Shown one piece after another: positions 5,292 to 57,949 of a stretch of 64,000 nucleotides of DNA (position 1 is its first letter; every line of letters starts with the position of its first letter). The position numbers and the translations under genes were made by a program. Source of the stretch: a phage; sequence record PZ540767.1; one strand, 5' to 3'. The notes under the pieces were generated by a model. It did not search any database and was not told where the DNA came from. It was given only the letters and a program-made list of their open reading frames with translations.

Positions 5292-6368
5292 ATGGCTATT
5301 AGACTGCAACAAATTGCTGCACCTAACTTTGCTGGTTCTAACCAATTACTGCTGGCAGCAAACCAGCAGATTGGTAATGCTCTCCAGGGGCTACAAGGCA
5401 CCCTGGGGCAGTATCGTGATGAAGTAGTACGCCGTAATACAGCTCAGGCTGTAGGACTGCTTACTGGGGCTACAGATGCTAATGATCTGGCCCAGCGTCA
5501 ACAGCAAGTAGCACAGTTGGTTCAGCAAGGGGATATTGACCCCACTCGTGTATCTGAAGTGGCAGCAACCATGCCAGATACTTTGTTAGGACGTCAGACT
5601 AATCAGCTAAAGCTGAACCAGATTCAGACTGCACAGCATGATGCACCATTAATGGGTGCTTATATGCAAGCTGTTATGTCTGGGGATCAGAATGCAGCTA
5701 AAGGTATTTTGTCGCAATTCCAGGGGGATGCTTCAGATGCTCTGAAGTTTGCCTCTGATTGGGATATCAAAAACCAGCAGTTGAATCTTCAACGGTCTGA
5801 ACTGGCACAGCGTCAAGCTCAGTTTGCTGCAACTCAGGCAGCAGCTAAGGCAAGAGCCGGGCAGAGTAATGCACTGCTTAAAGCCTTACCTGGTTTGCTT
5901 AACACAGGTAATGATATTCAGGGGAAGGCTGAAGCCAGGGATTTACAGGCTAATGCTCAGGATGCTCAACAACGTGTTGCTATGGATCCTATAAACAACC
6001 CTAAGCTTAATGTTGCTGGGTGGGCTGATGCTAACAGTGATGTTTGGTTTAGGGGCTGGGGAAGACAGGCAGACTCTGACAGAATTTTTAATGCTCTGAA
6101 GGATCAACCAGCTTTTAAAGCACTTAATCCTCAACAGCAGATAAATATCCTAGACGGTGCCCTTGCTAATGAAAACTCCCGCGAAGATAAGGGAAATGTT
6201 TCTACTGTAAATGCTGCTACTAAGTATCTGACTGATGCAACGAAGCGCTTAAATACCCTGAAGATTACTTCACGGCAAGCAGAGGATGCAAAAGATCAGC
6301 AATCTGTTATGCAAGAGCAAAGGGATCGTTTAAATAAGCTGCTTCTGCCCTTACTTTTCCAACAGTAA
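5292..6368 (+). CDS. Gln/Ala-rich coiled-coil protein (358 aa), virion module
   Basis: ORF; stop overlaps start of the giant ORF (ATGA-type coupling geometry). Confidence 0.6.
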   Translation: MAIRLQQIAAPNFAGSNQLLLAANQQIGNALQGLQGTLGQYRDEVVRRNTAQAVGLLTGATDANDLAQRQQQVAQLVQQGDIDPTRVSEVAATMPDTLLGRQTNQLKLNQIQTAQHDAPLMGAYMQAVMSGDQNAAKGILSQFQGDASDALKFASDWDIKNQQLNLQRSELAQRQAQFAATQAAAKARAGQSNALLKALPGLLNTGNDIQGKAEARDLQANAQDAQQRVAMDPINNPKLNVAGWADANSDVWFRGWGRQADSDRIFNALKDQPAFKALNPQQQINILDGALANENSREDKGNVSTVNAATKYLTDATKRLNTLKITSRQAEDAKDQQSVMQEQRDRLNKLLLPLLFQQ

Positions 6369-9300: not shown

Positions 9301-12300
9301 ACAAACTGCCCCAGTTAACGTAGATGATGTTGTTACCAACACTGATACTTTGACTGAGACTCAACAAGATAATGTAGCTCATGGTGCTCTGAGTATCTTT
9401 GGTAAAGTTGGTGAGTCCCTGAAAGCTCTGCGTGAGAAAGCTTTGGCTGAACCTAAAGGCTTACAGAACCTTGTGCTTACTGGTTTCAACCAGCGAGTTC
9501 GTCCAGGTTTTGGTAGCCCACTGGTAGCAGTGAAAGACTTTATCAATACTCTGAAAACTGCTGTGGATACTGGTAGCTTCACTGAAGTTAACCGTTTCCT
9601 GAAACAGCATATCAGTGAGTCGAAAGCTGAAGGTGCTAAACAGAAAGCTCTGCTGAAACAGTTTGTGGAATTCCATGATCACATCACAGCTAACCTGGAT
9701 AACATCATCCGTACTAAAGCCCCTGAGTATCGTTATCAGGACTTTGCTCAGTTTATCTTGGATGAGAATGGTAACTTTGACTCCAATACTAAAACTGGTA
9801 TTGCAGCAGGTATCTTCTCCTGGCTTGGTGAGAATGGGGATAAGATGTTCCTGAACCAGAGTGAAGTAGCTAAAACTCTGCGTATCAAAGAAGATCAGTT
9901 AACTCCACAAGCCATGTCTCGTATGGCTGATATTGGCTATCGCCAAGACTTGATCATGTCCCAACTTGGTCAACGTATTTATCAGGCTATGGGCTTTGCT
10001 AAACGTGCTGACGTTGATCCTAACCGTGCCAGCAAATTGCAGAATGCTCTGGGTGCTTATGCTCTCCATGCCATGTATTCCAATGGCTATATGGAACAGT
10101 CTTTAATGACTGCTAAAGAGTACTTCGATCTGCAAACCATGGGTCTGGATGAACAATCAGCTAAAGAAGCTGCACAAGCTTTCCAGAATGACTTTGGTGT
10201 TTCCCCTAACGATGCCAAGCACAAGATTGTGTTTAGCCGTCCTGCACGTAACTTTGATGCAGAAGGTAAACCAGTAGCTATTGAAGCTATCTCTGACATT
10301 AAGAATGGAATGAAAGATACCCGTTCTCTCATGTCTAAGCTGTTCGGTTATGATCCTGCTGTACGTGAGGTTCTGACCACTAAGCCTGCTGGTTTCAAAC
10401 AGAAAGTCTTCGGTAAAATGAATCGTGAAGTTCCTTCTGTTTTGGCTGCTCGTATCAGCAAAGCAATGCAATATGACTACACCATTGATCAGGGTGTAGT
10501 GAATGCTATGCGTACTATGTCCACTGTAGATAATGCTGCTCTGCAACATATCTTTGGTGTACGTACTGATGCTGATGTGCCCAATGAAATGGAGATCTTC
10601 AAGAAAGGACGTGAAGCCAAGAATGCTGATATCCAACGTTCTATGGAAATGGGTTTAGACTTTGCTAACCGTAGGGGTACTAACCCATTCTGGATGCCTA
10701 TGGAAGTCTGGACTAACCAACGTATTGGTGATCTGGCTTCAGAGTTCAACCCACAGGGTTCCAAAGTACACCGTGCTATGGGTGGCTTGAGTGCTCACCA
10801 GGTAGAGATTTCTGTAGCCCGTAATGCTCCTGTGCTGGACGCAGATGGTAAGCCTACTCAGTATGGCCTGTTCCTTGTATCCCTGGCTCAGGGTATGGAA
10901 GAAGCTCCTGTAATTGGTGCTGATGGTAAGAAACTGAAGTCTGTTGATAAGCAGACCTATGCTACCTTCTTACCTGCTTTCCAGAATTACCTGCGTAAAC
11001 CAGAGAACATTAAGGCTGTACGTGCTATGCAGAAAGTGATCGCTGGTTCAGCTACTACTGCTGATACCAACGTCATTAAGAATGCTGTGGCTGAGTATGG
11101 TATGAATGGTCAGTCTTTTGCTGCCCTGCATAACCTGGCTCAGTATGCTACTGCTCTGGAATCTGGTAAGTCTTCTGTTAAGCTGCTGGCTCAAATGGAA
11201 TCGGACGGTGTTACTAACGGCCCTATCCTGACTAACATCCTGAATGGCTCTGCTGACTTCGATCTACTGAAGCGTGGTGGTATTTATCGTGAAGGTGACA
11301 ATATTACCAACATGCCTACTTATCGTGAGTTGGGTGGTCAGGATTACTACGAGCTGCTGGGTGATGCTATGCGTCAGCATTGGGCTGATTACAAAACCAA
11401 TGCACCTGCTAGTCAGCAAGGTCAGATTCAGGCTCTGGAATATTTCTCTACTGGTTATGGTGCTCGTTCTAAGGCCAAGACTCTGGCTACCCCATTCAAC
11501 TACTCTGCTGGTATTCCAGCACTGAAAGCTGCTATGGGCCGAGCTACTGTAGAGGATGTTTACTCTAAGATTGGTTCCCTGATCCCACTGGCTAAAAGCA
11601 ATAACAAAGCAGACTTTGCCAAGGCTTATGCTGAGGTGAGTAAAAACCTTTCTGTACTCCTGGGTCAGAAAGTAAATCTGCCACGTACTGCTGATGGTCT
11701 GGTTAAGTTCAGCCTTAACCCGGCTCAAACTAAACGCATCATTGATGTGGATTCTCAGACTCGCGGTGTTGCTACAGAGACTGCTGTTAATGAGGTTGCT
11801 GCTGACTTCATTGCATCTCGTGATGCTAATACCAGTCTGGTTAACACAACCTTTACCCTGGCTAACCTTCGCTACAATGCTGCTAAAGCTGCACTGCTGA
11901 AGAAGCGTATTGCTGAGGGTAAAATCCCTGTGGATGCTAAAGGTGCTCCATTGGAAGGACTCACTCAGGCAGATCTGGATAAGCTATCCCGCATGATTCC
12001 TAACATGCCTTCTGCAACTGGTGTTCTGTCTGAGAATACCAAAGCTTCTGGTTACCCAATGGCTAAGGTGGAGAAAGCTTTTACTGCTAAGTCTCCTGCC
12101 ACCAGCATTGATATCTACTTCAAAGAAGCTGCTAACCCTAAACCAGCAATGGATGCTAATGGGATGCTGCTGAGTCAAGGTCTGGTAGGTGGATACAAAT
12201 CTACCCAGTCTACTGTGACTGAGACTAAGCTGACTAACCCTGGTGTTGCTATGGGTGCTAACGTTACTCAGGGTACTGATGCTGCAATCAGCTCTGATGT

Positions 12301-15300
12301 AATCAGCAAGATCGAAAGCCAGAACGTGCATGATGCTAACATCCTGTCTCCTGACAATGTGCTGAAAGGTGCTCGTATCCAGAACAAAGCTATGTTTGAT
12401 GCTGTGGTTTCTTATCATCCTCAACATCTGGCTGCTTCTGCACTGCTGACTGAAGTTCGTAGTCTGGCTGGTGCTAACCTGTCTACCAACGACAAGGTTG
12501 CAGCGAAGAAAGCTCTGGAAGCCATGAAGACTAAGATCCTGGGTAAAGACTTCAAGGGCAACATGAAAGCTGCTCTGAACACTATCCTTAACCAGGCATA
12601 TGATCGTGACATTAAGAAACTGGAGACTCTCTCTGAAGTCTATGCTGTTAACCAGTATGGTACTGAGGGGGGTGAATACCTGATCACTGATACTGATCGT
12701 AAGAAAATTGGTGATGAGATTGCACGTCTGAAACGTAGTCGTGCTGCTGGCTTACAACGTATCTCTGCTATGTTCTCTAAGGGTAATGCCCCAAAGGCTG
12801 AGGCCAACCAGTATCCTGATAAGATGAGACAATACCTGTATGAGGCTTCGGCCTCTACAGGCTCTGTGTCAGCTTCTGAGGTGATGGCTCGTACCAAAGG
12901 TAAGTTTGCTAACCCAGTATATAACGAACTCCACAATCTCATTTCTGGTTTGATTCCAGCTGATGCTGTGGTGAACGTACTGGATGGGCAGACTATGCCT
13001 AAGAATGTTAAGGGGCAGTCACTGCCCCAGAACCGTGATGCCATTGCATGGTCTTATCAAGATAAAAACACTGCACAGGTTAACCTGTCACTCAGCAAAG
13101 AGGCTTCACCTGAAGTCTTGCTGCATGAACTGACTCACATTGCTCTGGGACGTGCAATTGCTACTGCTGATTCAAATCCAAAAGTAAAAGCTGTACTGGC
13201 CCGTACAGAGAAGCTAATGGGTAGAGTGACCAAGCTGGTTTCAGCTGATCCTCAATTGACTCAGAAGTTTGCCCCTGCTTTGGCTAACGTGGATGAATTT
13301 ATCTCCTGGGGTATGACTAACCCAGAATTCCAACGTTACCTTGATACCATCACTGGTGTGCCTGAAATCTCAGGTCGTAACCGTGGATGGTTGGGTACTG
13401 CCTTTAAACAGTTTGTGGATCAAATGTCAGGCATCTTTGCTGCTGTAACTGGTCGAGCTATTAATGCTCGGGTTACTACTGCTCTGGAAGCTCTGACCTT
13501 CGATACTGCACATCTGGTTCAGGCTATTAATCCTACTGCTATTGAGAGTCCTGTATCTTCTATCAGCCACCCTATGAGCAACACTAACAGTGCTGCTGAT
13601 CAGGTAGCTAAGTTTAGCCATGTGGATATCTTTGATAACCTGGCTTCAACAGGTGGCAAGACTAACTCAGCACAGTTCACAGGTAACCTCCGTAATGTAA
13701 TATCCACTGTGGCGGATCAGCTTTACGGTGCTTTAGGCTCCAGAGTCACCCAGAATGCCAATGAGAATTATACTCCTGGTCAAGTCTGGAATGAGGCTGT
13801 AGCCACTGGGAAAGCCCCTGTCAGCACCGAAGCACTGAGCAATGGGTTTGTACTGACTAATCAGGAAGCCTTTGCTGTGGAGGCCATTGAGGCTGCTGTA
13901 TCTGAATCTCTGGCTTCTGGTTTCACTTCACCAGTTAACCGGGAGATTCGTCGTACTTGGCAAGCTGCTAAACAATCCCTGAAACCAGAAGACTTCCATA
14001 ATGGAAACTGGAATCAGGCAACTCAAGCAGAAAAACGAGCTGCTCAACAGAAATGGAATTATCTGTTTGATGTAACGAATGACTCTGGTGAGTCCCAGCA
14101 TCTGTCTCGTTTCGTTGCTATGGCTATTGGGCATGAAGACACCAGTAACTTACTTGGCTTCCAGATGGAAGATGGTAAGGACTCTGGTAATACTGCCTTT
14201 GAACAGGCTACTGCTTACTTTAACCAGGCTGTTAATACAGTCTCTGGCATGTTGACCAATACCCATCAAGGACAAGCTGCAAATGCTCGTGCTCAAGCAC
14301 TAGCTGAAAAGCTGATCCAGATTGAACTTAAGAACCGTGATACCACCATGAATATTCTTACTGGTGGGATCGACAAAGTAGAGAATGCCTTAGATACGGC
14401 TGCTGCTAAGTCTAAACAGTTCCTGGGTAAAATCGTTAAAGCTACTGGTATTGATCAGTCCTCCAACAATGCTCTGAATGCTATGGGCAAAGTTGCAGGA
14501 TTGGCTGCTCGTGATCAGCTGGGTAGCCTGAAAGAAACTATTAAAGAGTTCCGGGACTTTAATGCCCCTAGTACTCCAGAAGGTTCTCTGGCTTCCATTC
14601 TGACTGAAGCAACGAATGCTGATGATGTTCGTGCTCTGCATGAATCTCTGTTACGTTCTACTAAACGTATTGAACAGGATCGTGCAACCTTAGCTGCTGT
14701 TACTGCTAAGAACTTAAATGAGATGTTTGATAACAATGGTCAAGACCTGACTAAAGAAGATCGTACAGCAATGACTTACTCACTGCTTCGTACTGATCTT
14801 CAGTCTGTGTTGCACATTGAAGGTATGAACCTGAATAACTTACATAAACTGGTTTCTAATACTGGTTATCGTAAGCAGCAGATCAATAACCTTGAGAAAA
14901 CCATTAGCCAGTATGCTAACGGTAATGATAAGATCATTCGTGCCAAGGCTCTGGGATTCTGGATGGCTACTGGCAGAAATACCCTGGGACGTGATTTAGT
15001 TCTGAATGCAAAAGCTATTGCTACCGGAGCTGCTACTCACTATTCCACAGTAGGTATCGAACCGACTCTTGATGAAGTGAACGCCATTGATGCTCTGGCT
15101 TCAATGTACGCTCTAAGCTACACCAAGACCGAAAACCGTGTTCGCACTGCTGCTGTAATGGAACGTGAGCTTGCACGAGGTAAAGACAATGGCATTAAAA
15201 TGCTGATGGCTACTTATGCGAACCTGATTGAGGATTCTGCTAATACGCTGTTTGCTGGTAACCAGTTGTCTCGCATTAAAGGCTATTTGCCTGAAGATAC

Positions 15301-17050
15301 CAATCCTCATCATGACTTACGTGCGGTTGAGTCGGGGAGTGCAGATGAAGCAGCACTGGTGAACATGGGATACCAAAAAGTATCCCCACTGTCCCAGGAC
15401 TCTTTGTCAAAACACTCTGGACGTGTACTGTATGTGACCAAAGAGAATGGGTATCAACGAACCGTCTCTGGTACTTTCAGTTTAACTGGAAGCCAGCGTA
15501 AAGGTTCTTCCCTAAGTGGGGATCGTGCTGTTGCTGATCGTGTTCGAGCTGACGAGTTAGAACAGTTAAGGCAAGCGTCCTATGCAGACGTGCGAGGGCG
15601 TGAAGCACTGTCCCACACTGCCTTTGATCCTACTCAGATCCAGGATAACCATGTAGTGCCTGTATTAAGCACTGATGGTCATATCATGGACTTCCGTTAC
15701 ATGGCTACCCACAATACTCGTGACACGTTCCTTGATCGTAATAATGACTTTGCTGACCTTGTTGGTCGTCTGGCTGGTCAGAATATCGATAAGGGTGATG
15801 CCCCAAGCCAGAATGCTAAGATCCTGGAAGCTCTGCATGAAGACTCTAAGGCTAATATCCTGAAGAATCCTAATGCTTACTTTGAGATTGGGCCTAATGC
15901 ACCTACTGAGCGAGGACGTGAGATCTGGGCAATGATGCCTTATGAAGCACGTACTAAAGCTACTTCTCTGTGGGGTGCTGATCGTATGTATATTCGAAAC
16001 GATCTGGTTAACCTTACTTTTGGCTTCCGTAAGTATTCACTGGCTAACATTTTTGATGTTGATCCAGAACAGCGTAATATTGCTCAGGGTGTTGCTGCTG
16101 GTTTACTTGAAGCTGCTTTTGGTGATAAGGCTAAAGCTTATGTAATTAAGGGTGAGCGTGGCATTCAGGAATTTATGCAGTCCTATAAGGACGTGATCGT
16201 TATTCGTAACCTGAAAACCCAGTTCAGTAATATTATGTCTAATACTGCTCTACTGGCTGCTTATGGCGTTAACCCGGTACGTATGGTTAAAGATATCCGT
16301 ACTGCTCTGGTTGCTGGGATTGACTACCGTAAACAGTACTCGCTGCTACTCAAGTATCAGCAACAGCAACGTGCTGGTATTGGTAACTTTGCTCAGATGG
16401 AGTCCCTGATCAATGAGACGCAGGATCGCTTGAATGCTAACCCTCTGGCTAAGTTTATTCAGGCAGGTATGATGCCTACCATCGTAGAAGACGTTCAGCC
16501 TGATGCTGATGGTTACACTTATGGTTCTAAGATCCGTAAGAAATTTAATGAGGTATCTGCCCATCTGCCAGCTTCTGCTGTAACAGCTGCTCGCTGGGCT
16601 GTGATTGATAAAGGTACTGCACCTCATAAATTCTTAAGTGATGCTGCTCAGTTCAGTGACTTTGCTGCTAAGTATGCTCTGTATAAGCACCTGACAGAAC
16701 ATGCCCGAGATCGCCTGAGTCATACTGAGGCTTTACAACGTGCATCTGATGCTTTTGTTAACTATGACATTCCAGCTACAGCTACTCGCCAATATCTGGA
16801 TGATATGGGGATTACCATGTTTACGAAGTATCGTGTTCGTATCCAACGTGCAATGTTCTACTTGATGGATAAACGTCCAGCATCTGTTATGGCACATATG
16901 GCAATTACAGGGCAGTTTACTCATGCACCTGATGCTATGGAGCCACTGTTTGCACGTAACTTAGGTAACCCATTCACACCTTCAGTATTGCAGGGTGGGA
17001 GTTTGTTGAATGTCCCAATGCCTTGGAACTTATTCAGAATGGCATACTAA
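6368..17050 (+). CDS. Giant virion-associated RNA polymerase (vRNAP-like, 3560 aa)
   Basis: Single uninterrupted 10.7-kb ORF; size class matches N4 vRNAP (~3500 aa); sits at the end of the structural operon; followed by a strong terminator. Confidence 0.8.
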   Translation: MRLQSGYSTILRNTQMAGNSSPLDKFLVPQQVTGQEAAQALPAPTQPTIAQRVNDASTRILNNLTGQGMYPTEEGEIARLKRINNEQSAYAKEVAAKDSDYGWSSTNFLDPETSSLTDRTASTFVNYGKALTDAVNGLAGKTDKTFKTLGNVLDQASIPNDALDAYRRVQAGKGTEADNALLDRQGAWWTQPIEVNQYGVPEMGNQTLRQRLDAINERQKTQNQSSYDNLEKLANPVQMQQAAADIEKSIEGKSGLDKFAAGLAAIARNPGAAGQTMVESAPYMVGGIPGMLASSAMQGGSVLSQYLDTQRKASDGQIPTAKDVAIGTGLGVVDGALNFAESIINRTAMLPGSKVLPAGVADRLVNAAQRIAPRSSTAAAALARVTAPTLDLAKNALTEGLVSGAQNQIEENYAKGKNEWDTKGNDVAFFQGIAAATGFGAPRAALSTAGEVANTAAQAMQKRTEAQDPVGQAARNTTPEDLMNPQSEGYNPAAAIRRAGMEWTRNTDATTDEQKAEIQSQAQSAMDAAQNDHQNNLDMINQRATAERTLADAGKFIPAIQERLDQLSNDPNADPDAVNQLQTILAQQTEARDAAQQQLDAMPSQEELAQSATRSAEVLDQAKSEFGKFSSATGMNTNTAKPENPTASDIISHPMSYTNEDLQEFVRNAPANATPAELGTLRALADAKVAENAVKTGSKVNSEIFKSTSNNLSLGDYQQGINTAVQAGDTNRIQSLMTGINNFETSHTAKADIAQQYLNEAKQNGKSYQILKTSNGWELNTGKRLDAKAQAKNGGFTIHKGSTGLVNNIVNEAKAITATRQYMEGIATPSTNQNVTGSTEQVASPEAQPEGAATVAGETGAQEQQAQPTISPLTTRDIRAMDQATLEKVMATTQQAMSSDTNPVLARNLDALDREWTRRADVATNQNRGVDAPHRKLDDSFKPKAQENEIQRSQAETTTQTEHTQADIDNESTGSESQQTAPVNVDDVVTNTDTLTETQQDNVAHGALSIFGKVGESLKALREKALAEPKGLQNLVLTGFNQRVRPGFGSPLVAVKDFINTLKTAVDTGSFTEVNRFLKQHISESKAEGAKQKALLKQFVEFHDHITANLDNIIRTKAPEYRYQDFAQFILDENGNFDSNTKTGIAAGIFSWLGENGDKMFLNQSEVAKTLRIKEDQLTPQAMSRMADIGYRQDLIMSQLGQRIYQAMGFAKRADVDPNRASKLQNALGAYALHAMYSNGYMEQSLMTAKEYFDLQTMGLDEQSAKEAAQAFQNDFGVSPNDAKHKIVFSRPARNFDAEGKPVAIEAISDIKNGMKDTRSLMSKLFGYDPAVREVLTTKPAGFKQKVFGKMNREVPSVLAARISKAMQYDYTIDQGVVNAMRTMSTVDNAALQHIFGVRTDADVPNEMEIFKKGREAKNADIQRSMEMGLDFANRRGTNPFWMPMEVWTNQRIGDLASEFNPQGSKVHRAMGGLSAHQVEISVARNAPVLDADGKPTQYGLFLVSLAQGMEEAPVIGADGKKLKSVDKQTYATFLPAFQNYLRKPENIKAVRAMQKVIAGSATTADTNVIKNAVAEYGMNGQSFAALHNLAQYATALESGKSSVKLLAQMESDGVTNGPILTNILNGSADFDLLKRGGIYREGDNITNMPTYRELGGQDYYELLGDAMRQHWADYKTNAPASQQGQIQALEYFSTGYGARSKAKTLATPFNYSAGIPALKAAMGRATVEDVYSKIGSLIPLAKSNNKADFAKAYAEVSKNLSVLLGQKVNLPRTADGLVKFSLNPAQTKRIIDVDSQTRGVATETAVNEVAADFIASRDANTSLVNTTFTLANLRYNAAKAALLKKRIAEGKIPVDAKGAPLEGLTQADLDKLSRMIPNMPSATGVLSENTKASGYPMAKVEKAFTAKSPATSIDIYFKEAANPKPAMDANGMLLSQGLVGGYKSTQSTVTETKLTNPGVAMGANVTQGTDAAISSDVISKIESQNVHDANILSPDNVLKGARIQNKAMFDAVVSYHPQHLAASALLTEVRSLAGANLSTNDKVAAKKALEAMKTKILGKDFKGNMKAALNTILNQAYDRDIKKLETLSEVYAVNQYGTEGGEYLITDTDRKKIGDEIARLKRSRAAGLQRISAMFSKGNAPKAEANQYPDKMRQYLYEASASTGSVSASEVMARTKGKFANPVYNELHNLISGLIPADAVVNVLDGQTMPKNVKGQSLPQNRDAIAWSYQDKNTAQVNLSLSKEASPEVLLHELTHIALGRAIATADSNPKVKAVLARTEKLMGRVTKLVSADPQLTQKFAPALANVDEFISWGMTNPEFQRYLDTITGVPEISGRNRGWLGTAFKQFVDQMSGIFAAVTGRAINARVTTALEALTFDTAHLVQAINPTAIESPVSSISHPMSNTNSAADQVAKFSHVDIFDNLASTGGKTNSAQFTGNLRNVISTVADQLYGALGSRVTQNANENYTPGQVWNEAVATGKAPVSTEALSNGFVLTNQEAFAVEAIEAAVSESLASGFTSPVNREIRRTWQAAKQSLKPEDFHNGNWNQATQAEKRAAQQKWNYLFDVTNDSGESQHLSRFVAMAIGHEDTSNLLGFQMEDGKDSGNTAFEQATAYFNQAVNTVSGMLTNTHQGQAANARAQALAEKLIQIELKNRDTTMNILTGGIDKVENALDTAAAKSKQFLGKIVKATGIDQSSNNALNAMGKVAGLAARDQLGSLKETIKEFRDFNAPSTPEGSLASILTEATNADDVRALHESLLRSTKRIEQDRATLAAVTAKNLNEMFDNNGQDLTKEDRTAMTYSLLRTDLQSVLHIEGMNLNNLHKLVSNTGYRKQQINNLEKTISQYANGNDKIIRAKALGFWMATGRNTLGRDLVLNAKAIATGAATHYSTVGIEPTLDEVNAIDALASMYALSYTKTENRVRTAAVMERELARGKDNGIKMLMATYANLIEDSANTLFAGNQLSRIKGYLPEDTNPHHDLRAVESGSADEAALVNMGYQKVSPLSQDSLSKHSGRVLYVTKENGYQRTVSGTFSLTGSQRKGSSLSGDRAVADRVRADELEQLRQASYADVRGREALSHTAFDPTQIQDNHVVPVLSTDGHIMDFRYMATHNTRDTFLDRNNDFADLVGRLAGQNIDKGDAPSQNAKILEALHEDSKANILKNPNAYFEIGPNAPTERGREIWAMMPYEARTKATSLWGADRMYIRNDLVNLTFGFRKYSLANIFDVDPEQRNIAQGVAAGLLEAAFGDKAKAYVIKGERGIQEFMQSYKDVIVIRNLKTQFSNIMSNTALLAAYGVNPVRMVKDIRTALVAGIDYRKQYSLLLKYQQQQRAGIGNFAQMESLINETQDRLNANPLAKFIQAGMMPTIVEDVQPDADGYTYGSKIRKKFNEVSAHLPASAVTAARWAVIDKGTAPHKFLSDAAQFSDFAAKYALYKHLTEHARDRLSHTEALQRASDAFVNYDIPATATRQYLDDMGITMFTKYRVRIQRAMFYLMDKRPASVMAHMAITGQFTHAPDAMEPLFARNLGNPFTPSVLQGGSLLNVPMPWNLFRMAY

Positions 17051-46912: not shown

Positions 46913-48094
46913 CTATACAAGCCCTTCCATTGTAAAGTGAACCACTTTGCCAAATTTTGGTACAAAGTTGGGGTTATCATAAACGAACCAGATTACAGGA
47001 CGTTTAGGATCTACCAGATTGTGCTGGCTGAGGTAACCATCAGTCAGGATAAACATCCCCAGTGATGCTTTATCACGGGCGAAGTCTTCGATGGTACTGT
47101 CGATGCAAGTACCGCCACCACCACTGAATTTAACATTGAGCAGATCACGTACTGTACATATACGAGAGATATCCTTGATATCAGTATCAAACTGATACAG
47201 CTTTATCTCGTCTGGTTTAAACAGTTTCAGTACCTGATAAACACCACCTAAGAAGATGGTGAACTCTTTCTTGCCAATGGAACCAGATACGTCAATAGCC
47301 CATGAAATACGTCCCAGGGACTTACCACGGCGTTCTGGAGCAGTGATATCGTGTACCAGCATACGACGACGAAGACGTGACCATGTACGGCCAGGCTTAC
47401 GTGTGACCTTCTCACAGAAGATCTTCAGATAGTGCTGCCAAGGAATTGGAGGATTCAGGAGATCCTCAATACGGCGAGCCATATCCTTAGTACCACGCCC
47501 AAACTGTTTACCAGTCTGGTTTGCCTCAGCCATTTCAGCTGCCATGTTAGCACCCAGTAAGATGCTATCAATTTGCTGCTTCTGGCTATCCTGTTCTTCT
47601 TGGGTCAGGGACTGTTTATTGAAATCAGGCATAGGGTTTTTACCCTTGTGAGTGCCTGGTTTCTTAGCCTCTTCCTGTTGAAGAATCCGGTATACCTGCA
47701 TGGTGGTCATACCATCAAAGCGGGAGTCTACCAATACCTTAATAGTTGTAGGCATTGGCATTCCAGACTTTTTCAATTCCAGGTTGATTACATAGTCACC
47801 AGCCTGGTTCCACAGATCTTCATCCAGATCGGCAGGGAAAGTAGTGCAGTGTTCATGCACAATATGCCCAACTTCATGAGCCACCACAAAAGGGTGTTCA
47901 GCAGGTTTGAGCATCTCCATGAATTTCTGGTTGTAATACACGGTTAAAGAATCCGTGTAAGCAGAATCACAAGGGTGCCCAGCGGGCACTTCCTTATGTT
48001 TTAATCTGAGGATCATTGAAGCCCAGAACACATACTTCTCATCCAAAGCCAGGGTAGTAAAGGCTTTGTCGAGGATCTTCTCAAGTGGTGACAT
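46913..48094 (-). CDS. vWA-domain protein with N-terminal HExxH metallopeptidase-like domain
   Basis: 'HEVGHIVHEH' zinc-binding-like motif; 'IDVSGSIG' MIDAS motif. Confidence 0.6.
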   Translation of the reverse strand: MSPLEKILDKAFTTLALDEKYVFWASMILRLKHKEVPAGHPCDSAYTDSLTVYYNQKFMEMLKPAEHPFVVAHEVGHIVHEHCTTFPADLDEDLWNQAGDYVINLELKKSGMPMPTTIKVLVDSRFDGMTTMQVYRILQQEEAKKPGTHKGKNPMPDFNKQSLTQEEQDSQKQQIDSILLGANMAAEMAEANQTGKQFGRGTKDMARRIEDLLNPPIPWQHYLKIFCEKVTRKPGRTWSRLRRRMLVHDITAPERRGKSLGRISWAIDVSGSIGKKEFTIFLGGVYQVLKLFKPDEIKLYQFDTDIKDISRICTVRDLLNVKFSGGGGTCIDSTIEDFARDKASLGMFILTDGYLSQHNLVDPKRPVIWFVYDNPNFVPKFGKVVHFTMEGLV

Positions 48095-50090: not shown

Positions 50091-50114
50091 GATTAATTCC
50101 TTAATAGGTTGAAG

Positions 50115-50300
50115 TTACTTAATAGGTTTAAACGCATTAGCAGGTAATTTTTTAGCTCCTGCTACAGCATTCTGAATTGCTTTGATTCTCCCAAATAGGG
50201 TGTCAGGTTCACCTGGATAGGATCGGGCAAATTCAAAGCCAGAATGTTCAAGTTGCCCCTCTTTGGTAACAACCATGTATCCGAATTTAGTTACGATCAT
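50115..50300 (-). CDS. Small protein (61 aa)
   Basis: ATG preceded by strong ggagga RBS. Confidence 0.45.
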   Translation of the reverse strand: MIVTKFGYMVVTKEGQLEHSGFEFARSYPGEPDTLFGRIKAIQNAVAGAKKLPANAFKPIK

Positions 50301-50384
50301 TAATCCTCCAGATTTTCTGAATAATTAGGGAATAGTGTGAATAACTTTCACAAACCTGGCTTACATGAAACCAGGTTTAGGAAG

Positions 50385-51221
50385 TTACTTAACAGGGACG
50401 AAAGGTACAGAAGCACCTGGCACCATAGTGGTAGGCATTACACCGTTCCACTTAGCAATGGCATCCAGTTGAATTACGTTCGGGTTAGCAGCGAGTGCTT
50501 CACCACGCAATTTGATAGCATCAGCTTCACCTTGGGCACGGATACGTGCAGAGTCGGATTCACCACGAGCTTTCGCACGTTCTTTCTCCGCTTCAGCTTC
50601 AGATTGTTTGATCTCTTGTTCACGCTGCAATGTAACCTGGTTTGCAGTTACTTTGGCGTTAATGGAAGCAATGACGGTTGGTGGGTATTCAGGCTTGCCC
50701 ACATAGGACAGACTGATCACCTCAATACCAACTGGGGTCATTTCAGCCTGGATCATACTGAGTGCTTGGGTCAAGAGATCAGATTTACCACCATCAATGA
50801 ACTTGTCAGTAGTCATACGTGAGGCCAGACGGTTCAGGCTGTCAGCAATCTTCTGTTGCAGATCGCTGTCGGTGATTTCATCCACACCTTTACGATAGGT
50901 CTGGAAGACTGTCGCTACTTTAGTCGGGTTGACTTTATAAGCCACACCGATGTGATAGCCGATGGTTGTACCGTCAGACATTTGGAACGTAAAGATCCCG
51001 TCGTAGGTTTTCATCTGCTTGAAGGTCGGGAACGTGTACAGGTCTTCGTTCCAGCCGATCCAGTAACGGCCTACACCTTTCACTTGCTGTTCAACACCCT
51101 TCTCGTCACCGAGACGGTTAACGATAATACCCACGTTACCTGGTTCGACACGCTCATAGCAGCCTGTCAGCGAGGTCATTGCAACGACTGCCAGAATGCA
51201 GCCCATGATAAATTTACGCAT
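50385..51221 (-). CDS. SPFH/band-7 (stomatin/prohibitin-like) lipoprotein
   Basis: Start at internal ATG 51221: signal peptide with 'LTGC' lipobox; SPFH-like core and Ala/Glu-rich coiled coil (QREQEIKQSEAEAEKERAKA...). Confidence 0.6.
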   Translation of the reverse strand: MRKFIMGCILAVVAMTSLTGCYERVEPGNVGIIVNRLGDEKGVEQQVKGVGRYWIGWNEDLYTFPTFKQMKTYDGIFTFQMSDGTTIGYHIGVAYKVNPTKVATVFQTYRKGVDEITDSDLQQKIADSLNRLASRMTTDKFIDGGKSDLLTQALSMIQAEMTPVGIEVISLSYVGKPEYPPTVIASINAKVTANQVTLQREQEIKQSEAEAEKERAKARGESDSARIRAQGEADAIKLRGEALAANPNVIQLDAIAKWNGVMPTTMVPGASVPFVPVK

Positions 51222-51417
51222 GTTTGATCTTCTTTTTGATTTGACGATAAACGAAAGTGACCACCAGAGCAGGCCACACCAGAGCACCAGCAATGCCGAT
51301 GAACACGAGGATGGTATCTTTAGCTGATACCAATGAAGGCAATATGCCTCCATACAGGACACCTGACAGGAGTAAGATCACTACTCCATACAGGTAGAGT
51401 TTCAGATATTTATTCAT
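51214..51417 (-). CDS. Small two-TM membrane protein, partner of SPFH protein
   Basis: 67 aa, two hydrophobic helices, KKKIKHA tail; stop overlaps SPFH start. Confidence 0.45.
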   Translation of the reverse strand: MNKYLKLYLYGVVILLLSGVLYGGILPSLVSAKDTILVFIGIAGALVWPALVVTFVYRQIKKKIKHA

Positions 51418-51736
51418 CTGTTTTGCGATTCCTTAAACCAGGGATTGTGTAGGCTTTGGAGATATACTCCCCAATATAGAAATACTCATGAATTTCACTT
51501 TCAATCATTCGTACTTCAGAGCCTGCATCAGTCAGTACGGTGTAACAGGGTTCTGGCTTAAAGTCGGCAATGCTCATTGTGGATCCGATTTTGGTAATGA
51601 AAGCATTACCTAACCGACGTCCATCTTTTGTGCATAGCTGACGATGTAATTCCAGAGTCCCGGACGGATCGTAACGTTCAGCCCAGTCAGGCAGGACTTC
51701 ACGTTTAAACTGTTCGTCATACTCTTCGTCTGTCAT
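51410..51736 (-). CDS. Hypothetical protein (108 aa)
   Basis: ORF with ATG; stop overlaps next start. Confidence 0.45.
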   Translation of the reverse strand: MTDEEYDEQFKREVLPDWAERYDPSGTLELHRQLCTKDGRRLGNAFITKIGSTMSIADFKPEPCYTVLTDAGSEVRMIESEIHEYFYIGEYISKAYTIPGLRNRKTDE

Positions 51737-52098
51737 GAAGCCTCCTTTAAAGCTTTGTCACGACGCTTACAGTTTTCTTTCTGGCTTACCATTTCCAGAT
51801 GTGCAGGGTTACAGCACAAGCGATTACGACACTTATGGTCTATCTGCTTCTTGGATGGGATATAGCCATAGAAGTGGGTATATACAACGAGGTGAGTAGC
51901 TACAGTCTGGCTATTGAGACTCATACGCCCATAGCCTCCACCACGTCCAGTCCCTGAATCAGGGCCAGTCCATATGAAGCAAGGGCTAGGTAAGCCTTCA
52001 AGTTTAAAGCCCAGATCTCTGATATCTACTCGTTCGAATACACGCTGGAGTATTTCTTCCCTACGATTGGGAAGTTCCTCCAGTATCTTGTCGAGCAT
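51733..52098 (-). CDS. HNH endonuclease
   Basis: 'QIDHKCRNRLCCNPAHLEMVSQKEN' HNH/zinc motif. Confidence 0.65.
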   Translation of the reverse strand: MLDKILEELPNRREEILQRVFERVDIRDLGFKLEGLPSPCFIWTGPDSGTGRGGGYGRMSLNSQTVATHLVVYTHFYGYIPSKKQIDHKCRNRLCCNPAHLEMVSQKENCKRRDKALKEAS

Positions 52099-55649: not shown

Positions 55650-56924
55650 TTAGCTTAATGCATAGTTGGAACCACGGATTTTATCTCCGAGGTTGTTAGA
55701 CAGTTTGGTATATACCCCATCAGTGCTTCCATACAGCTGGTTCATCAGGGATTGCAGAATGGTGCTATCAGCGAATTCTGCCAGCATCTCTTTGTACCAG
55801 TACCGTACTTCATTACAGTTGTTTGGATGGGAACCAAAGGCATCGTGAACAGTAGCCACAGGGAATGGTTTGTAGGTCAGCATGAAGTTAACTTTACGCA
55901 TTACATCACGAGCTAAGTCGATAGGTAACTGCATGTAGTTGCTCCAGTTGATATCGTTGAGAATAACCATAGAAGACTGCTTATTCTCATTCCACAGACG
56001 GATACGACGTACCATATCACCAGTAGCTTCTTCAGCCTGCATACCCATGCTATTAGCCAGCAGACGTGCTTCCAGCATCTTCTGCACCTCTGCTACCAGT
56101 TCTGGATCGTAGTTGCACAGACGCTCCAGCTCACGCAGCAGATAGGCATCACAGCAGTGAATGGTATTGGCTACGTTAGCTCGGCCTTTCTCTGTACCCC
56201 GGTTCTCTTTGTATTCCATGGTGAAAGTAGCGTGATCAAGCTCATCTACTTCAATTCTGGTTTCCAGAGTTTCCATGACTTTCATCTTAGCGATGAAGCC
56301 ATCAGGCAGCTCCAGAACGTGTTCCAGAGCATACGGACGCCAGGAACCCAGGAGTTCATCCATGAGGTTGAACGCACCAGGAGCGATGATGTGGGCTGCT
56401 TCGTAGAAGTAGTCCAGCATCTCGCCCTCACCGAATACCTTCTTAGGCACAGCCTTAGAACCGTAACCAGAGGTCATTACAGCTTGTTTGATATGGCTAC
56501 GAGGTACTTGGATACTATCCAGACCTTTACGCTTCAGAACGCCATTCATGGCGTCTGTAGTGTTGCTGTAGGCATCCATACGCTTCTCTGGGTCAATACA
56601 ACCAGTGTTGTATGCACCTCTCTCACAGCCTGTGAGGGCACTCATAATCTGAATTCCAGAGCAGCAACCATCCCAGTAGGTGATGTTGCCTACAGCTTCC
56701 CCACGCTGTACACGACGTAAAGTCATAACAGCTTTGTGGTACAGCTCAGGGGTTTCAGCATCTTGAACCTTAGATTCCAGATCCTTGATGTTGTCGTATA
56801 CCCACTGAATACGTTCTTCGAACAGTTTCTTGTCCAGACCGTAATAGTTGGCTACGTCGATGCACATGTATTCCCAACCAGACATATATTTGAAGTTTGG
56901 GCCATAAGCGGTGTTGATTACCAT
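55650..56924 (-). CDS. Phage RNA polymerase II, large (catalytic) subunit; T7-like single-subunit RNAP C-terminal half
   Basis: 'DGCCSGIQIMSALTG' (T7 RNAP motif A-like DGSCSGIQ) and 'VHDAFGSHP' (motif C-like HDSFG). Confidence 0.85.
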   Translation of the reverse strand: MVINTAYGPNFKYMSGWEYMCIDVANYYGLDKKLFEERIQWVYDNIKDLESKVQDAETPELYHKAVMTLRRVQRGEAVGNITYWDGCCSGIQIMSALTGCERGAYNTGCIDPEKRMDAYSNTTDAMNGVLKRKGLDSIQVPRSHIKQAVMTSGYGSKAVPKKVFGEGEMLDYFYEAAHIIAPGAFNLMDELLGSWRPYALEHVLELPDGFIAKMKVMETLETRIEVDELDHATFTMEYKENRGTEKGRANVANTIHCCDAYLLRELERLCNYDPELVAEVQKMLEARLLANSMGMQAEEATGDMVRRIRLWNENKQSSMVILNDINWSNYMQLPIDLARDVMRKVNFMLTYKPFPVATVHDAFGSHPNNCNEVRYWYKEMLAEFADSTILQSLMNQLYGSTDGVYTKLSNNLGDKIRGSNYALS

Positions 56925-56941
56925 TAGTTAAGTCTCTCTAT

Positions 56942-57949
56942 TTAAAGTTTAAATTCATCAGGCACACCAGTTACTTGCTCTTTATTGGCAAAGTTTAAAC
57001 TGGCTTTCTTGAAGGGAGTGCCTTGAAGGTTGATGTGATAACCCTGGGTATACAGACGTCCACGTTTGTCAGGTTTATTGCCAAAGTAGAACTTATTACC
57101 CTGGTTTACCATCAGGCTATAGAAGTAGTACGACTGACGTTTGTAACGCATCCAGTTGTCTTTCTGTTTACGTACCAGATCAGCCTTCTCCCACGGTGTG
57201 AGAGGTTTCTTACGGTGTTTCTGGAGCTTCTCTTCATCGATCTCATTGAGATCAAATGTAGGTTCTTCTTCGTAGTTACAGAGGAATTCTACGTCCAGAG
57301 AGTAAGGCACAGCATTACGGCTGTTGATTACATCCAGACAGATATCCTCATTATGGTGATTGAATGATCCCCCTAGAATAAGGCTATCAGATGAATAAGT
57401 AAGGTAAGGAGTATCCATGTTATGGGTAAGCTTCTTGGGTGGGCAAACCAGTGGTGGTAGATAACACGAACGCTCAATGAATTGAGCCAACTGGTCAGGC
57501 AACCCAATATTGCTAACGATATACAGAGATGCTTTAGGATGAGGCTTGTTAATGTCATATACATCAGTATCCGTAAGGACAGCAACGATTTCAGCCATAG
57601 TCTGAATGCTGTCACGTTTATCATCGAAACCCAGTCTGGAAGCCAGCTGGCCTACTACGTTGACCATTGGAGTAGGTTCAGGGAAATACATAATTCCCAC
57701 GAACACTTCTTTCACAATAGCTTCCAGATCAAGGGATTTGAGGTGGTTAAGGCGTACAGCTTTAGAGTCGTAATACTCACCCTCAAGCCACTGGTTTAAC
57801 AGAGATACACCCTGTTCTACCTTGTCTAACAGGTTGCAATCAGGGTCTTCAAACAGCTCTTTACGGATATAACCATCAATATGTTTCCTGTTGAACTGAC
57901 GTTCATTGATGGCCTGAAGTTCCTCAACTGGTAACCATTTATGCTGCAT
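56942..57949 (-). CDS. Phage RNA polymerase II, small subunit (N-terminal half of split T7-like RNAP)
   Basis: Immediately upstream of catalytic subunit in same orientation; 335 aa; N4 gp15/gp16-like split arrangement. Confidence 0.65.
   Translation of the reverse strand: MQHKWLPVEELQAINERQFNRKHIDGYIRKELFEDPDCNLLDKVEQGVSLLNQWLEGEYYDSKAVRLNHLKSLDLEAIVKEVFVGIMYFPEPTPMVNVVGQLASRLGFDDKRDSIQTMAEIVAVLTDTDVYDINKPHPKASLYIVSNIGLPDQLAQFIERSCYLPPLVCPPKKLTHNMDTPYLTYSSDSLILGGSFNHHNEDICLDVINSRNAVPYSLDVEFLCNYEEEPTFDLNEIDEEKLQKHRKKPLTPWEKADLVRKQKDNWMRYKRQSYYFYSLMVNQGNKFYFGNKPDKRGRLYTQGYHINLQGTPFKKASLNFANKEQVTGVPDEFKL

What the first reader, a model, noticed from the sequence alone, without database searches (positions are those of the whole stretch)
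50385..51417. SPFH/band-7 lipoprotein with a small two-TM partner
50385-51221 encodes a lipoprotein (lipobox LTGC) with an SPFH-like core and an Ala/Glu-rich coiled coil; its start overlaps the stop of a 67-aa two-helix membrane protein (51214-51417). SPFH proteins scaffold membrane microdomains and regulate membrane proteases. A phage copy with a dedicated membrane partner could act in superinfection exclusion, lysis timing or protection of the infected cell envelope.
Basis: partly seen in the sequence, partly recalled or inferred. Interest (0 to 1): 0.5.

Follow-up and report, generated by a model that had tools for sequence, protein, structure and literature searches.

The report
Phage SPFH lipoprotein with two-helix partner
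This is the Klebsiella-phage copy of phage N4 genes gp19 and gp20, a small two-helix membrane protein followed by a lipid-anchored prohibitin-like scaffold protein; the pair travels as one unit through many unrelated phages, and nobody has yet shown what it does.

Summary
On the minus strand, 51417-51214 encodes a 67-aa helical hairpin membrane protein. Its stop overlaps by 8 nt the start of a 278-aa SPFH/Band-7 protein (51221-50385) that has a canonical lipobox (LTG|C21). The window is an N4-like (Schitoviridae, Efbeekayvirus-like) Klebsiella phage, and the two genes are orthologues of N4 gp19 (41% identity) and gp20 (64%).

The pair is a conserved two-gene early/middle cassette that moves between phages. 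I found it in N4-like, lambdoid, P2-like, P1-like, T7-like, rV5-like and LUZ24-like phages and in a Lak megaphage. The two genes co-diverge (Mantel r 0.62, p 2e-4). Against the close relative P184 they are swapped in or out together, exactly at their outer borders.

The SPFH protein is prohibitin-type. Its model matches cage-forming prohibitin, HflK/C, erlin and stomatin chains over its full length. The partner belongs to a Pfam-less family of 764 representative clusters with an invariant turn motif, G-x3-P-x-L-I-S-A.

The most likely mechanism is inferred, not shown: a periplasm-facing SPFH dome on the inner membrane that encloses the hairpin partner, probably to control a conserved inner-membrane function, with FtsH as the prime candidate. 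The function is untested. This is a new member of a known, annotated but uncharacterised kind. Interest is moderate.

The parts
51214..51417 (-). Partner gene: a 67-aa inner-membrane helical hairpin, predicted N-in/C-in, with a basic C-tail (RQIKKKIKHA) and the conserved periplasmic-turn motif G23-x3-P27-S-L-V-S31-A-K-D-T. It is the orthologue of N4 gp19.
   Evidence: ORF and hydropathy; phrog_1130 E 2e-18; 41% identity to N4 gp19; AF2 hairpin with pLDDT 85.6; family of 764 representatives with invariant P and S; no Pfam, NCBIfam or PADLOC family.
50385..51221 (-). SPFH/Band-7 (prohibitin-type) lipoprotein of 278 aa. It has a signal peptide with lipobox LTG|C21, an SPFH core at about 22-178, a long wall helix at 181-245, a short helix at 247-256, and a conserved C-terminal tail KWNGxLP...PF(V/I)xVK. 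It is the orthologue of N4 gp20.
   Evidence: Band_7 E 1.1e-29; phrog_200 E 1e-98; 64% identity to N4 gp20; AF2 model; Foldseek full-length matches to prohibitin, HflK/C, erlin, stomatin and QmcA; the family profile hits prohibitins first in the PDB.
51214..51221 (-). 8-nt overlap ATGCGTAA between the partner's stop and the SPFH start. This suggests translational coupling.
   Evidence: Read directly from the sequence. An overlap or near-abutment (-20 to +25 nt) recurs in most homologous loci.
50394..51404 (-). Cassette as defined by comparison with phage P184. Exactly these two genes are replaced there by 334 bp that encode two unrelated small membrane ORFs, while the flanks stay 89-95% identical.
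   Evidence: blastn of the window against L002; P184 annotation and translations.

Best explanation
This is a two-gene, early/middle-expressed membrane module, the N4 gp19/gp20 pair. Shown: gene 2 is a prohibitin-type SPFH protein with a lipobox, gene 1 is a two-helix hairpin, and the two are inherited and exchanged as one unit across many phage lineages. Inferred: the SPFH protein is exported, lipid-modified at Cys21 and held on the periplasmic face of the inner membrane. There it oligomerises through its long helix and conserved C-terminal tail into a dome or cage, like those of HflK/C and prohibitin. The dome fences off a patch of inner membrane that holds oligomers of the hairpin partner, whose invariant P-x-L-I-S-A turn sits at the periplasmic interface where the SPFH1 domain docks. 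The module is found in phages of very different morphology, entry route and host phylum, so its target is probably a universal inner-membrane function rather than a phage-specific receptor. The other outward-facing, N-terminally anchored SPFH cages considered here (HflK/C, prohibitin) gate an FtsH-type AAA+ protease. My first choice is therefore that the module sequesters or modulates host FtsH or membrane quality control, protecting phage or host membrane proteins and keeping the envelope intact until lysis. This last step is the least certain.
For: Identity and architecture. The orientation follows from the lipobox or N-terminal anchor in all homologues. Inner-membrane retention is suggested by Asp at +2 (C|DR) in the 68-70%-identical prophage clade that keeps the same partner. 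Partner linkage has several supports. The partner HMM hits directly upstream on the same strand in 107 of 114 SPFH loci, which collapse to 17 of 24 clusters at 90% identity. In the reverse test, three divergent partner proteins each have a Band_7 gene immediately downstream, in T7-like and ~138-kb phage backbones. The two genes co-diverge, Mantel r 0.62, p 2e-4. The pair is swapped jointly against P184. No third gene is conserved with them. Early context: the pair lies about 4-5 kb downstream of the RNAPII genes here and in N4, in the PL-side early operon of lambdoid prophages, and in the early operon of a P2-like prophage. Class inference: the closest solved relatives are prohibitins, then QmcA, HflC and HflK.
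Against: There is no experiment on any member, and no multimer model could be run, so oligomerisation and the partner contact are inferred. In the N4-like clade the +2 residue is Tyr, not Asp. By the enterobacterial +2 rule this could mean outer-membrane sorting, away from the partner. The hairpin exposes only about 4 residues to the periplasm, a small surface for a specific contact. There is no sequence sign of FtsH binding. The protein scores far below the HflC/HflK equivalog cut-offs. In Staphylococcus Kayvirus and SEP9 the SPFH gene sits beside lysis genes and has a different, single-TM upstream partner, which fits a lysis-related role equally well. Close relatives (P184, FBKp27) do without the pair, so it is accessory.
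Confidence: 0.4

Rival explanations
1. Superinfection exclusion or envelope sealing. The early-made periplasmic dome and its hairpin partner block genome entry of later-arriving phages across the inner membrane, by analogy with the small T4 Imm and Sp membrane proteins or with phage lipoproteins that mask receptors.
For: The genes sit in an early/middle position. The site is a swap hotspot for small membrane proteins in close relatives, which is typical of exclusion or host-takeover loci. In N4 the gene just upstream is annotated 'superinfection exclusion, similar to P22 gp17'. PHROG files the partner under 'moron, auxiliary metabolic gene and host takeover'.
Against: Exclusion proteins are usually specific to one entry route. 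This module is shared by podo-, myo- and siphoviruses of Proteobacteria and Bacteroidota. In temperate phages it lies in lytic early operons, not next to the immunity genes expressed by a prophage. The window's upstream ORF is not a homologue of N4 gp18. PADLOC gives no hit.
Confidence: 0.17
2. Lysis-timing device. The 2-TM partner is a holin- or pinholin-like protein (small, N-in/C-in, basic C-tail), and the SPFH cage corrals or restrains it or the phage's real holin, delaying membrane permeabilisation and lengthening the productive period.
For: The partner's size and topology resemble class II holins. One UniRef record names a partner homologue 'Holin'. In Kayvirus and SEP9 the SPFH gene and its small membrane neighbour lie next to endolysin or transglycosylase genes.
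Against: In Gram-negative phages the pair is not in the lysis cassette and lies among early genes. The partner's conserved signature sits in the turn and does not look like a pore-lining face. The 'Holin' label is an unverified database name. The Staphylococcus partners belong to a different family.
Confidence: 0.13
3. General membrane stabiliser or counter-defence. The dome stiffens or repairs the inner membrane and so blunts envelope stress or membrane-depolarising abortive-infection effectors, with no single protein target.
For: The module has a broad host and phage range. SPFH proteins are generally linked to membrane organisation and stress tolerance (established knowledge of the family; PMC13086221 and PMC12005517 were listed). 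The module is accessory and patchy in distribution, as counter-defence genes often are.
Against: A non-specific stabiliser would not need a partner with invariant Pro and Ser. There is no association with known defence or anti-defence genes in the neighbourhoods examined, and PADLOC gives no hit.
Confidence: 0.15
4. Outer-membrane lipoprotein acting alone. In the N4-like clade, Tyr at +2 lets Lol carry the protein to the outer membrane, where it works independently of the hairpin, for example by masking a receptor or reinforcing the outer membrane. The adjacency of the two genes would then reflect co-regulation only.
For: +2 is Tyr with +3 Glu, Asp or Gln in the window, N4 and S6. By the enterobacterial +2 rule (established knowledge), only Asp is the native retention signal.
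Against: The 68-70%-identical prophage and P1-like copies have Asp at +2 and keep the same partner. Some lineages replace the lipobox with a plain N-terminal TM anchor, which can only be in the inner membrane. Co-divergence and joint swapping argue for physical cooperation.
Confidence: 0.1

Closest known systems
Phage N4 gp19 (membrane protein) and gp20 (lipoprotein); PHROG families phrog_1130 and phrog_200
   Same: These are direct orthologues, at 41% and 64% identity. Gene order, the 8-nt overlap, gene lengths (68 and 278 aa), the lipobox and the position downstream of the RNAPII genes are all the same.
   Different: Nothing essential differs. The host is Klebsiella. The flanking genes differ: N4 gp18 has no homologue here. 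Neither N4 protein has a published function that I could find.
Prohibitin (PHB1/PHB2) cages of mitochondria
   Same: These are the best sequence and fold matches. The layout is the same: N-terminal membrane anchor, SPFH core, one long wall helix and a C-terminal cap segment. The topology is also the same, facing away from the cytoplasm or matrix.
   Different: Identity is only about 16-19%. The anchor is a lipid rather than a TM helix. There is a single gene rather than two paralogues. The client is unknown, whereas prohibitin works with the m-AAA protease.
E. coli HflK/HflC-FtsH complex
   Same: It is a periplasm-facing SPFH cage on the inner membrane. Full-length structural similarity is seen to 7vhq and 7wi3. 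It has an operon-level link to a membrane client.
   Different: This protein is not an HflC or HflK equivalog: 24 and 20 bits against cut-offs of 134 and 159. It is much shorter, is a lipoprotein, and is encoded by a single gene. No link to FtsH has been shown.
SPFH-NfeD operon pairs (QmcA-YbbJ, YqiK-YqiJ, FloT-YuaF, archaeal stomatin-STOPP)
   Same: An SPFH gene is paired with an adjacent small membrane-protein gene, and in the solved QmcA-YbbJ complex (8z5g, listed) the partner sits under the cage.
   Different: The partner here has no NfeD/OB-fold domain: Pfam gives no hit, and 67 aa leaves no room for one. Those systems face the cytoplasm; this one faces the periplasm. The partner family has its own motif.
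Staphylococcus Kayvirus MbpV/MbpS
   Same: It is a phage SPFH protein (25-28% identity) with a small membrane protein encoded immediately upstream.
   Different: It has a TM anchor rather than a lipobox. Its partner is a single-TM protein with a charged coiled C-terminal part and does not belong to the hairpin family. It lies beside lysis genes.

Membership tests
SPFH / Band 7 superfamily (Pfam PF01145) | Match to the Band_7 profile above the gathering score | tested here: met
   E 1.1e-29, 104.2 bits against a cut-off of 23.6, residues 24-211 covering profile positions 2-176 of 176.
SPFH / Band 7 superfamily (Pfam PF01145) | SPFH alpha/beta core followed by a long helix and C-terminal segment, as in cage-forming members | tested here: met
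   AF2 model with mean pLDDT 73.8, helix 181-245. Foldseek alignments of 254-306 columns to prohibitin, HflK/C, erlin and stomatin, E 4e-13 to 1e-10.
SPFH / Band 7 superfamily (Pfam PF01145) | Assembly into a large ring or cage | not testable with these tools
   Only single-chain prediction was available. Assembly is inferred from the architecture and the conserved C-terminal tail (W258, G260, P263 and P273 are invariant).
Prohibitin subfamily | Closest profile and structure relationship is to prohibitins rather than to other SPFH classes | tested here: met
   The profile of 18 phage sequences hits PHB2 (E 6e-11) and PHB1 (E 1e-8) ahead of QmcA, HflC and HflK. The top Foldseek hit is 8rrh.
HflC / HflK (NCBIfam TIGR01932 / TIGR01933 equivalogs) | Score above the curated equivalog cut-off | tested here: not met
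   24.3 bits against 134.4 for HflC and 20.4 bits against 159.4 for HflK.
Bacterial lipoprotein | N-terminal signal peptide ending in a lipobox [LVI][ASTVI][GAS]C | tested here: met
   MRK + hydrophobic core + LTG|C21 fits the PROSITE-type rule. The Cys is conserved in 17 of 18 diverse homologues. SignalP and LipoP were not available.
Bacterial lipoprotein | Actual acylation, and the membrane in which the mature protein sits | not testable with these tools
   +2 is Tyr here and Asp in the prophage clade. Localisation needs fractionation.
NfeD partner family (Pfam PF01957) | C-terminal NfeD OB-fold domain next to the TM segments | tested here: not met
   The 67-aa protein has no Pfam hit. The AF2 model is a bare helical hairpin.
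N4 gp19-type hairpin family (phrog_1130) | 60-90 aa, two TM helices, turn motif G-x3-P-x-L-[IV]-S-A-x-x-T-x-x-V-x-x-G, encoded directly upstream of an SPFH gene | tested here: met
   phrog_1130 E 2e-18. P27, S31 and G41 are present. In the family consensus P is at 100%, S at 99% and G at 98% over 142 representatives. Synteny is shown.
Known anti-phage defence systems (PADLOC-DB) | Match to any defence-protein model | tested here: not met
   Neither protein gives a hit at E <= 0.01.
Class II holins / pinholins | Two TM helices, N-in/C-in, lethal hole formation, located in a lysis cassette | tested here: inconclusive
   Topology and size fit, but the gene is not in a lysis cassette. Hole formation cannot be tested here.

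The most novel reading that the evidence does not exclude
The gp19/gp20-type pair is a self-contained, phage-built membrane compartment. A lipid-anchored prohibitin-like cage assembles on the periplasmic face of the inner membrane around a dedicated minimal hairpin client, which belongs to a new Pfam-less family with an invariant turn motif. Phages of many lineages exchange this cassette in order to capture or silence a universal host inner-membrane machine such as FtsH during infection. This would be the first viral SPFH cage with a defined client and target.
Probability: 0.25. Interest if true: 0.65.

Novelty: new member of a known kind. Interest (0 to 1): 0.38.

Why it matters
SPFH cages (HflK/C, prohibitin, stomatin, flotillin, erlin) have only recently been seen at high resolution, and what they do to the membrane patch they enclose is still debated. 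Phages carry a stripped-down version: one 278-aa lipoprotein and one 67-aa hairpin. It occurs in 689 of 50,697 phage records (about 1.4%) and in many enterobacterial prophages. Such a minimal, genetically dispensable two-gene system in tractable phages (N4, lambdoid and P2-like prophages) would be a convenient model for how an SPFH cage recognises a client. It would also reveal a widespread but unstudied step of host takeover at the inner membrane. For this window alone the result is modest: a correctly spotted, already annotated, functionally uncharacterised accessory cassette.

Tried and rejected
(1) 'Serine protease', the label on the S6, phiP27, Stx2-phage and RCS47 homologues, is rejected. 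Only a Band_7 domain is present and no protease domain.

(2) HflC or HflK orthologue is rejected: the scores are far below the equivalog cut-offs.

(3) NfeD-type partner is rejected: there is no OB-fold and no Pfam hit.

(4) I considered that TM1 of the partner is a cleavable signal peptide, because P-x-L-V-S-A looks like a signal-peptidase c-region. I rejected this because the -1 position is M, P, Q or E in several lineages, Bruynoghevirus copies have Pro at +1, the hydrophobic stretch is about 20 residues long, and AF2 gives a confident hairpin.

(5) A defence system is rejected: no PADLOC hits.

(6) I looked for a conserved third gene downstream and found none across lineages.

(7) The window's upstream 108-aa ORF is not a homologue of N4 gp18, which is annotated 'superinfection exclusion'.

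(8) Searches that led nowhere. Eight literature searches found no functional data on phage SPFH proteins, N4 gp19/gp20, or CRISPRi-ART or HIDEN-SEQ fitness data for them (papers checked). The search was also meant to confirm my recollection that aromatic residues at +2 can retain lipoproteins in the inner membrane. It returned nothing relevant, so that point stays unverified. Megablast of two prophage variants against complete E. coli genomes gave only a lower bound (37 of 5,426 genomes at about 79% identity) or nothing, so I give no prevalence figure.

(9) The word-indexed protein search for the partner found only close relatives. The profile search was needed to see the family.
Full report
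**What is in the sequence.**
- On the minus strand a 67-aa ORF (51417-51214) is followed by a 278-aa ORF (51221-50385).
- The stop of the first overlaps the start of the second by 8 nt, ATGCGTAA.
- The partner's own start overlaps the stop of the preceding 108-aa ORF in the same way (ATGAATAA), so three genes look translationally coupled.
- The 278-aa protein matches Pfam Band_7 with E 1.1e-29, well above the gathering score. It matches PHROG phrog_200 'lipoprotein' with E 1e-98.
- Its N-terminus MRKFIMGCILAVVAMTSLTG|C fits the lipobox rule.
- The 67-aa protein has two hydrophobic segments and a basic tail. It matches phrog_1130 'membrane protein' with E 2e-18. It has no Pfam, NCBIfam or PADLOC family.
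- Each gene is present once in the window.

**Where the window comes from.**
- The region is 90-96% identical at the DNA level to about 76-kb Klebsiella podoviruses: Tribble_ER49, K17alpha62, cp20, P184 and FBKp27. P184 is classified in Schitoviridae, genus Efbeekayvirus.
- The window also carries a 3,560-aa ORF (6368-17050), the size of the giant virion RNA polymerase of N4-like phages. I infer this from size alone; I did not search the protein.
- Two ORFs at 55650-57949 correspond in position to the genes annotated 'RNA polymerase' in Tribble_ER49 and P184 and to N4 RNAPII gp15/gp16.
- The pair lies about 4-5 kb downstream of those genes on the same strand, as in N4.
- In N4 the corresponding genes are gp19 (membrane protein, 68 aa) and gp20 (lipoprotein, 278 aa). 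Identities are 41% and 64% over the full lengths.
- From this position I infer early or middle expression. I have no transcript data.

**The two genes form one unit.**
- *Synteny.* In a hand-checked set of 35 loci, a small two-TM ORF sits directly upstream of the SPFH gene, from 20 nt of overlap to a 25-nt gap. This holds in N4, Erwinia phage S6, the Efbeekayvirus-like contigs, IMG/VR contigs at about 40% identity, Pseudomonas phage U2, Burkholderia BcepF1, the P1-like RCS47 (where the ORF is not annotated), DSS3_MAL1, Rhizobium IC12 and the Prevotella megaphage Lak-B4. In PVP-SE1 and PSA34 it lies one gene further upstream.
- *HMM scan.* An HMM built from these partners finds a hit upstream on the same strand in 107 of 114 SPFH loci. 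The set is redundant. After clustering the SPFH proteins, 17 of 24 clusters at 90% identity and 6 of 12 at 50% identity have a partner hit.
- *Exceptions.* Six of the seven SPFH clusters at 90% identity that lack a partner hit are the most divergent copies, at 22-28% identity; the seventh is Erwinia phage vEam_PM_6 (genus Kolesnikvirus), at 37%. Several of them have a different small TM protein upstream (Kayvirus MbpV, SEP9, OLIVR3, Yen9-04). vEam_PM_6 has a non-TM neighbour.
- *Reverse test.* Three divergent partner proteins (30-42% identity) each have a 296-aa Band_7 gene immediately downstream. They sit in a T7-like backbone and in a ~138-kb phage backbone.
- *Co-divergence.* Pairwise identities of the two proteins are correlated over 16 loci (Mantel r 0.62, permutation p 2e-4).
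- *Joint swap.* Against P184 the flanks align at 89-95% identity, but window 50394-51404 is replaced by 334 bp that encode two unrelated small membrane ORFs. That interval is precisely the two genes.
- *No third gene.* No downstream gene is conserved across lineages.

**Distribution.**
- tblastn with the SPFH protein hits 689 of 50,697 phage records, 676 of them over at least 80% of the protein. The genera include Staphylococcus, Pseudomonas, Erwinia, Klebsiella, Escherichia, Burkholderia, Caulobacter, Salmonella, Prevotella and Rhizobium phages.
- More than 530 relatives are present in IMG/VR.
- Copies at 65-72% identity are common in Enterobacterales chromosomes. The contexts I examined are prophages:
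  - lambdoid ones, where the pair lies between the repressor gene (Peptidase_S24) and int on the leftward early side;
  - a P2-like one, where it lies in the early operon between cox and the replication gene.
- It also occurs in P1-like plasmid prophages and Stx2 phages.
- In none of these is it next to a lysis cassette or among genes expected to be expressed by a resting prophage.

**The SPFH protein.**
- The AF2 model (39-sequence alignment, mean pLDDT 73.8) shows an SPFH core, a single helix spanning 181-245, a short helix at 247-256, and a low-confidence C-terminal tail.
- Foldseek aligns nearly the whole chain to subunits of solved cages: prohibitin 8rrh (E 4e-13), HflK/C 7vhq and 7wi3, erlin, stomatin and QmcA-YbbJ 8z5g.
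- A profile of 18 diverse phage sequences hits prohibitin-2 (E 6e-11) and prohibitin-1 (E 1e-8) before QmcA, HflC and HflK.
- The single sequence finds only the prohibitin-2 coiled coil.
- It is not an HflC or HflK equivalog.
- Across the 18 sequences the lipobox Cys is nearly invariant, and W258, G260, P263 and P273 in the C-terminal tail are invariant. This fits a tail that closes the top of a cage, as in the solved relatives. That role is inferred.
- Some lineages (DSS3_MAL1, Yen9-04, OLIVR3, Staphylococcus phages) have an uncleaved N-terminal TM anchor in place of the lipobox. The conserved property is therefore an N-terminal membrane anchor with the body outside the cytoplasm.

**The partner.**
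- AF2 gives a confident helical hairpin, H3-30 and H35-65, with a four-residue turn, pLDDT 85.6.
- The positive charges at both ends argue for an N-in/C-in orientation. This is inferred from the positive-inside rule.
- A profile search of 1.84 billion representative proteins finds 764 relatives at E <= 1e-3. Of 143 listed representatives retrieved, 141 are 55-100 aa long.
- In 142 aligned representatives the consensus is MK.Y...(TM1)...G-f-v-l-P-x-L-I-S-A-x-s-T-x-x-V-x-x-G. Pro is at 100%, Ser at 99% and the two Gly at 91% and 98%.
- The conserved signature sits at the periplasmic end of the hairpin, which is where a lipid-anchored SPFH1 domain would touch the membrane.
- The family is not in Pfam.

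**Which membrane.**
- In the prophage and P1-like clade the residues after the lipid-modified Cys are D-R. Asp at +2 is the enterobacterial inner-membrane retention signal (established knowledge of the Lol pathway).
- In the window, N4 and S6 the residues are Y-E, Y-D or Y-Q. In Pseudomonas phages they are S-K.
- The Asp+2 copies are 68-70% identical and keep the same partner, and other lineages use a TM anchor. I therefore infer inner-membrane residence for the whole family.
- The Tyr+2 of the N4-like clade is unexplained.
- I recall a report that aromatic residues at +2 can also cause retention in a reporter lipoprotein. I could not verify it in the library.

**Mechanism.**
- Shown: the domain identities, the anchor, the hairpin, the genetic linkage and the early-operon context.
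- Inferred: export and lipidation, oligomerisation into a prohibitin- or HflK/C-like dome on the periplasmic face of the inner membrane, and enclosure of or docking on the partner.
- The module is shared by phages with unrelated virions and entry routes, infecting at least Proteobacteria and Bacteroidota. I therefore favour a target that is universal in bacterial inner membranes.
- The two best-studied outward-facing, N-terminally anchored SPFH cages, HflK/C and prohibitin, both gate an FtsH-type protease. FtsH is thus my first candidate. The benefit would be stabilising phage or host membrane proteins and keeping the envelope intact until lysis.
- I put about 0.4 on the cage-plus-client picture with a conserved inner-membrane target, and roughly 0.25 on FtsH specifically.
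- The rivals are superinfection exclusion (0.17), lysis timing (0.13), non-specific membrane stabilisation or counter-defence (0.15), and an outer-membrane lipoprotein acting alone (0.10). The evidence for and against each is given in the Rival explanations section.

**Literature.**
- I found no functional study.
- A 2026 paper on the Efbeekayvirus GIB1 notes the SPFH lipoprotein and says the reason for its presence 'remains unclear' (PMC13239085).
- A Burkholderia phage paper speculates about lysogeny control through HflC (PMC10269572).
- A Kayvirus paper names MbpV and MbpS and speculates that MbpS assists secretion of Tgl (PMC7150955).
- T4-like phages were already reported in 2006 to carry Band 7 ORFs (PMC1524935).
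- None of these describes the hairpin partner family or the cassette behaviour.

**Verdict.** The finding is real and correctly described. It is the local copy of a widespread, already annotated but uncharacterised phage gene pair (N4 gp19/gp20), so I rate it a new member of a known kind. What this analysis adds is the definition of the partner family and its turn motif, the evidence that the two genes form one mobile unit, the prohibitin-type assignment, and the topological argument. The function stays open, and interest is moderate (0.38).

Noticed in passing
window 50110-50338 (61-aa ORF at 50115-50300, minus strand): This stretch, just downstream of the SPFH gene, has no match in the close relatives Tribble_ER49 or P184. 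It is a second small indel hotspot next to the pair. The ORF has no Pfam or PHROG hit.
   Followed up: partly
window 51410-51736 (108-aa ORF, minus strand): Its stop overlaps the partner's start by 8 nt (ATGAATAA), the same geometry as the overlap between partner and SPFH gene. It is kept in P184, where the pair is swapped out. It matches phrog_9905 (unknown function) and is not a homologue of N4 gp18.
   Followed up: partly
L002 (Klebsiella phage P184) 4346-4701: At the site where the window has the pair, P184 and FBKp27 carry two other small membrane ORFs: one of 61 aa with one TM, and one of 57 aa with two hydrophobic segments. The locus seems to be a swap site for small membrane proteins.
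   Followed up: partly
L027 (Escherichia phage RCS47, NC_042128) about 2468-2704: The hairpin partner ORF upstream of the SPFH 'lipoprotein' gene is not annotated in this P1-like phage record.
   Followed up: yes
Homologues in Erwinia phage S6 (HQ728266), Stx2_499, RCS47 and Pastis: Several records call the SPFH protein a 'serine protease'. Only a Band_7 domain is detectable, so this looks like a legacy misnomer.
   Followed up: yes
OY979417.1 (Klebsiella phage vB_Kpn_K17alpha62) 69378-71026: The features listed under the match to this early-gene region are 'tail length tape measure protein' and 'portal protein'. That cannot be right for these genes, so the annotation appears to be shifted.
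   Followed up: no
L033 (Agrobacterium phage OLIVR3) 1989-3188: The CDSs named 'band 7-like protein' are annotated on the strand opposite to the tblastn match to the SPFH protein. The strand was probably mis-called in the record.
   Followed up: no
window 51733-52098 and 46913-48094 (minus strand): An HNH endonuclease gene (HNH_3, E 2e-16) lies two genes upstream of the pair. A second ORF a few kb downstream corresponds in position to the gene annotated 'HNH endonuclease' in Tribble_ER49 and P184. Lambdoid prophage copies of the pair also have an HNH_3 gene two genes upstream. Whether homing endonucleases help move the cassette was not examined.
   Followed up: no
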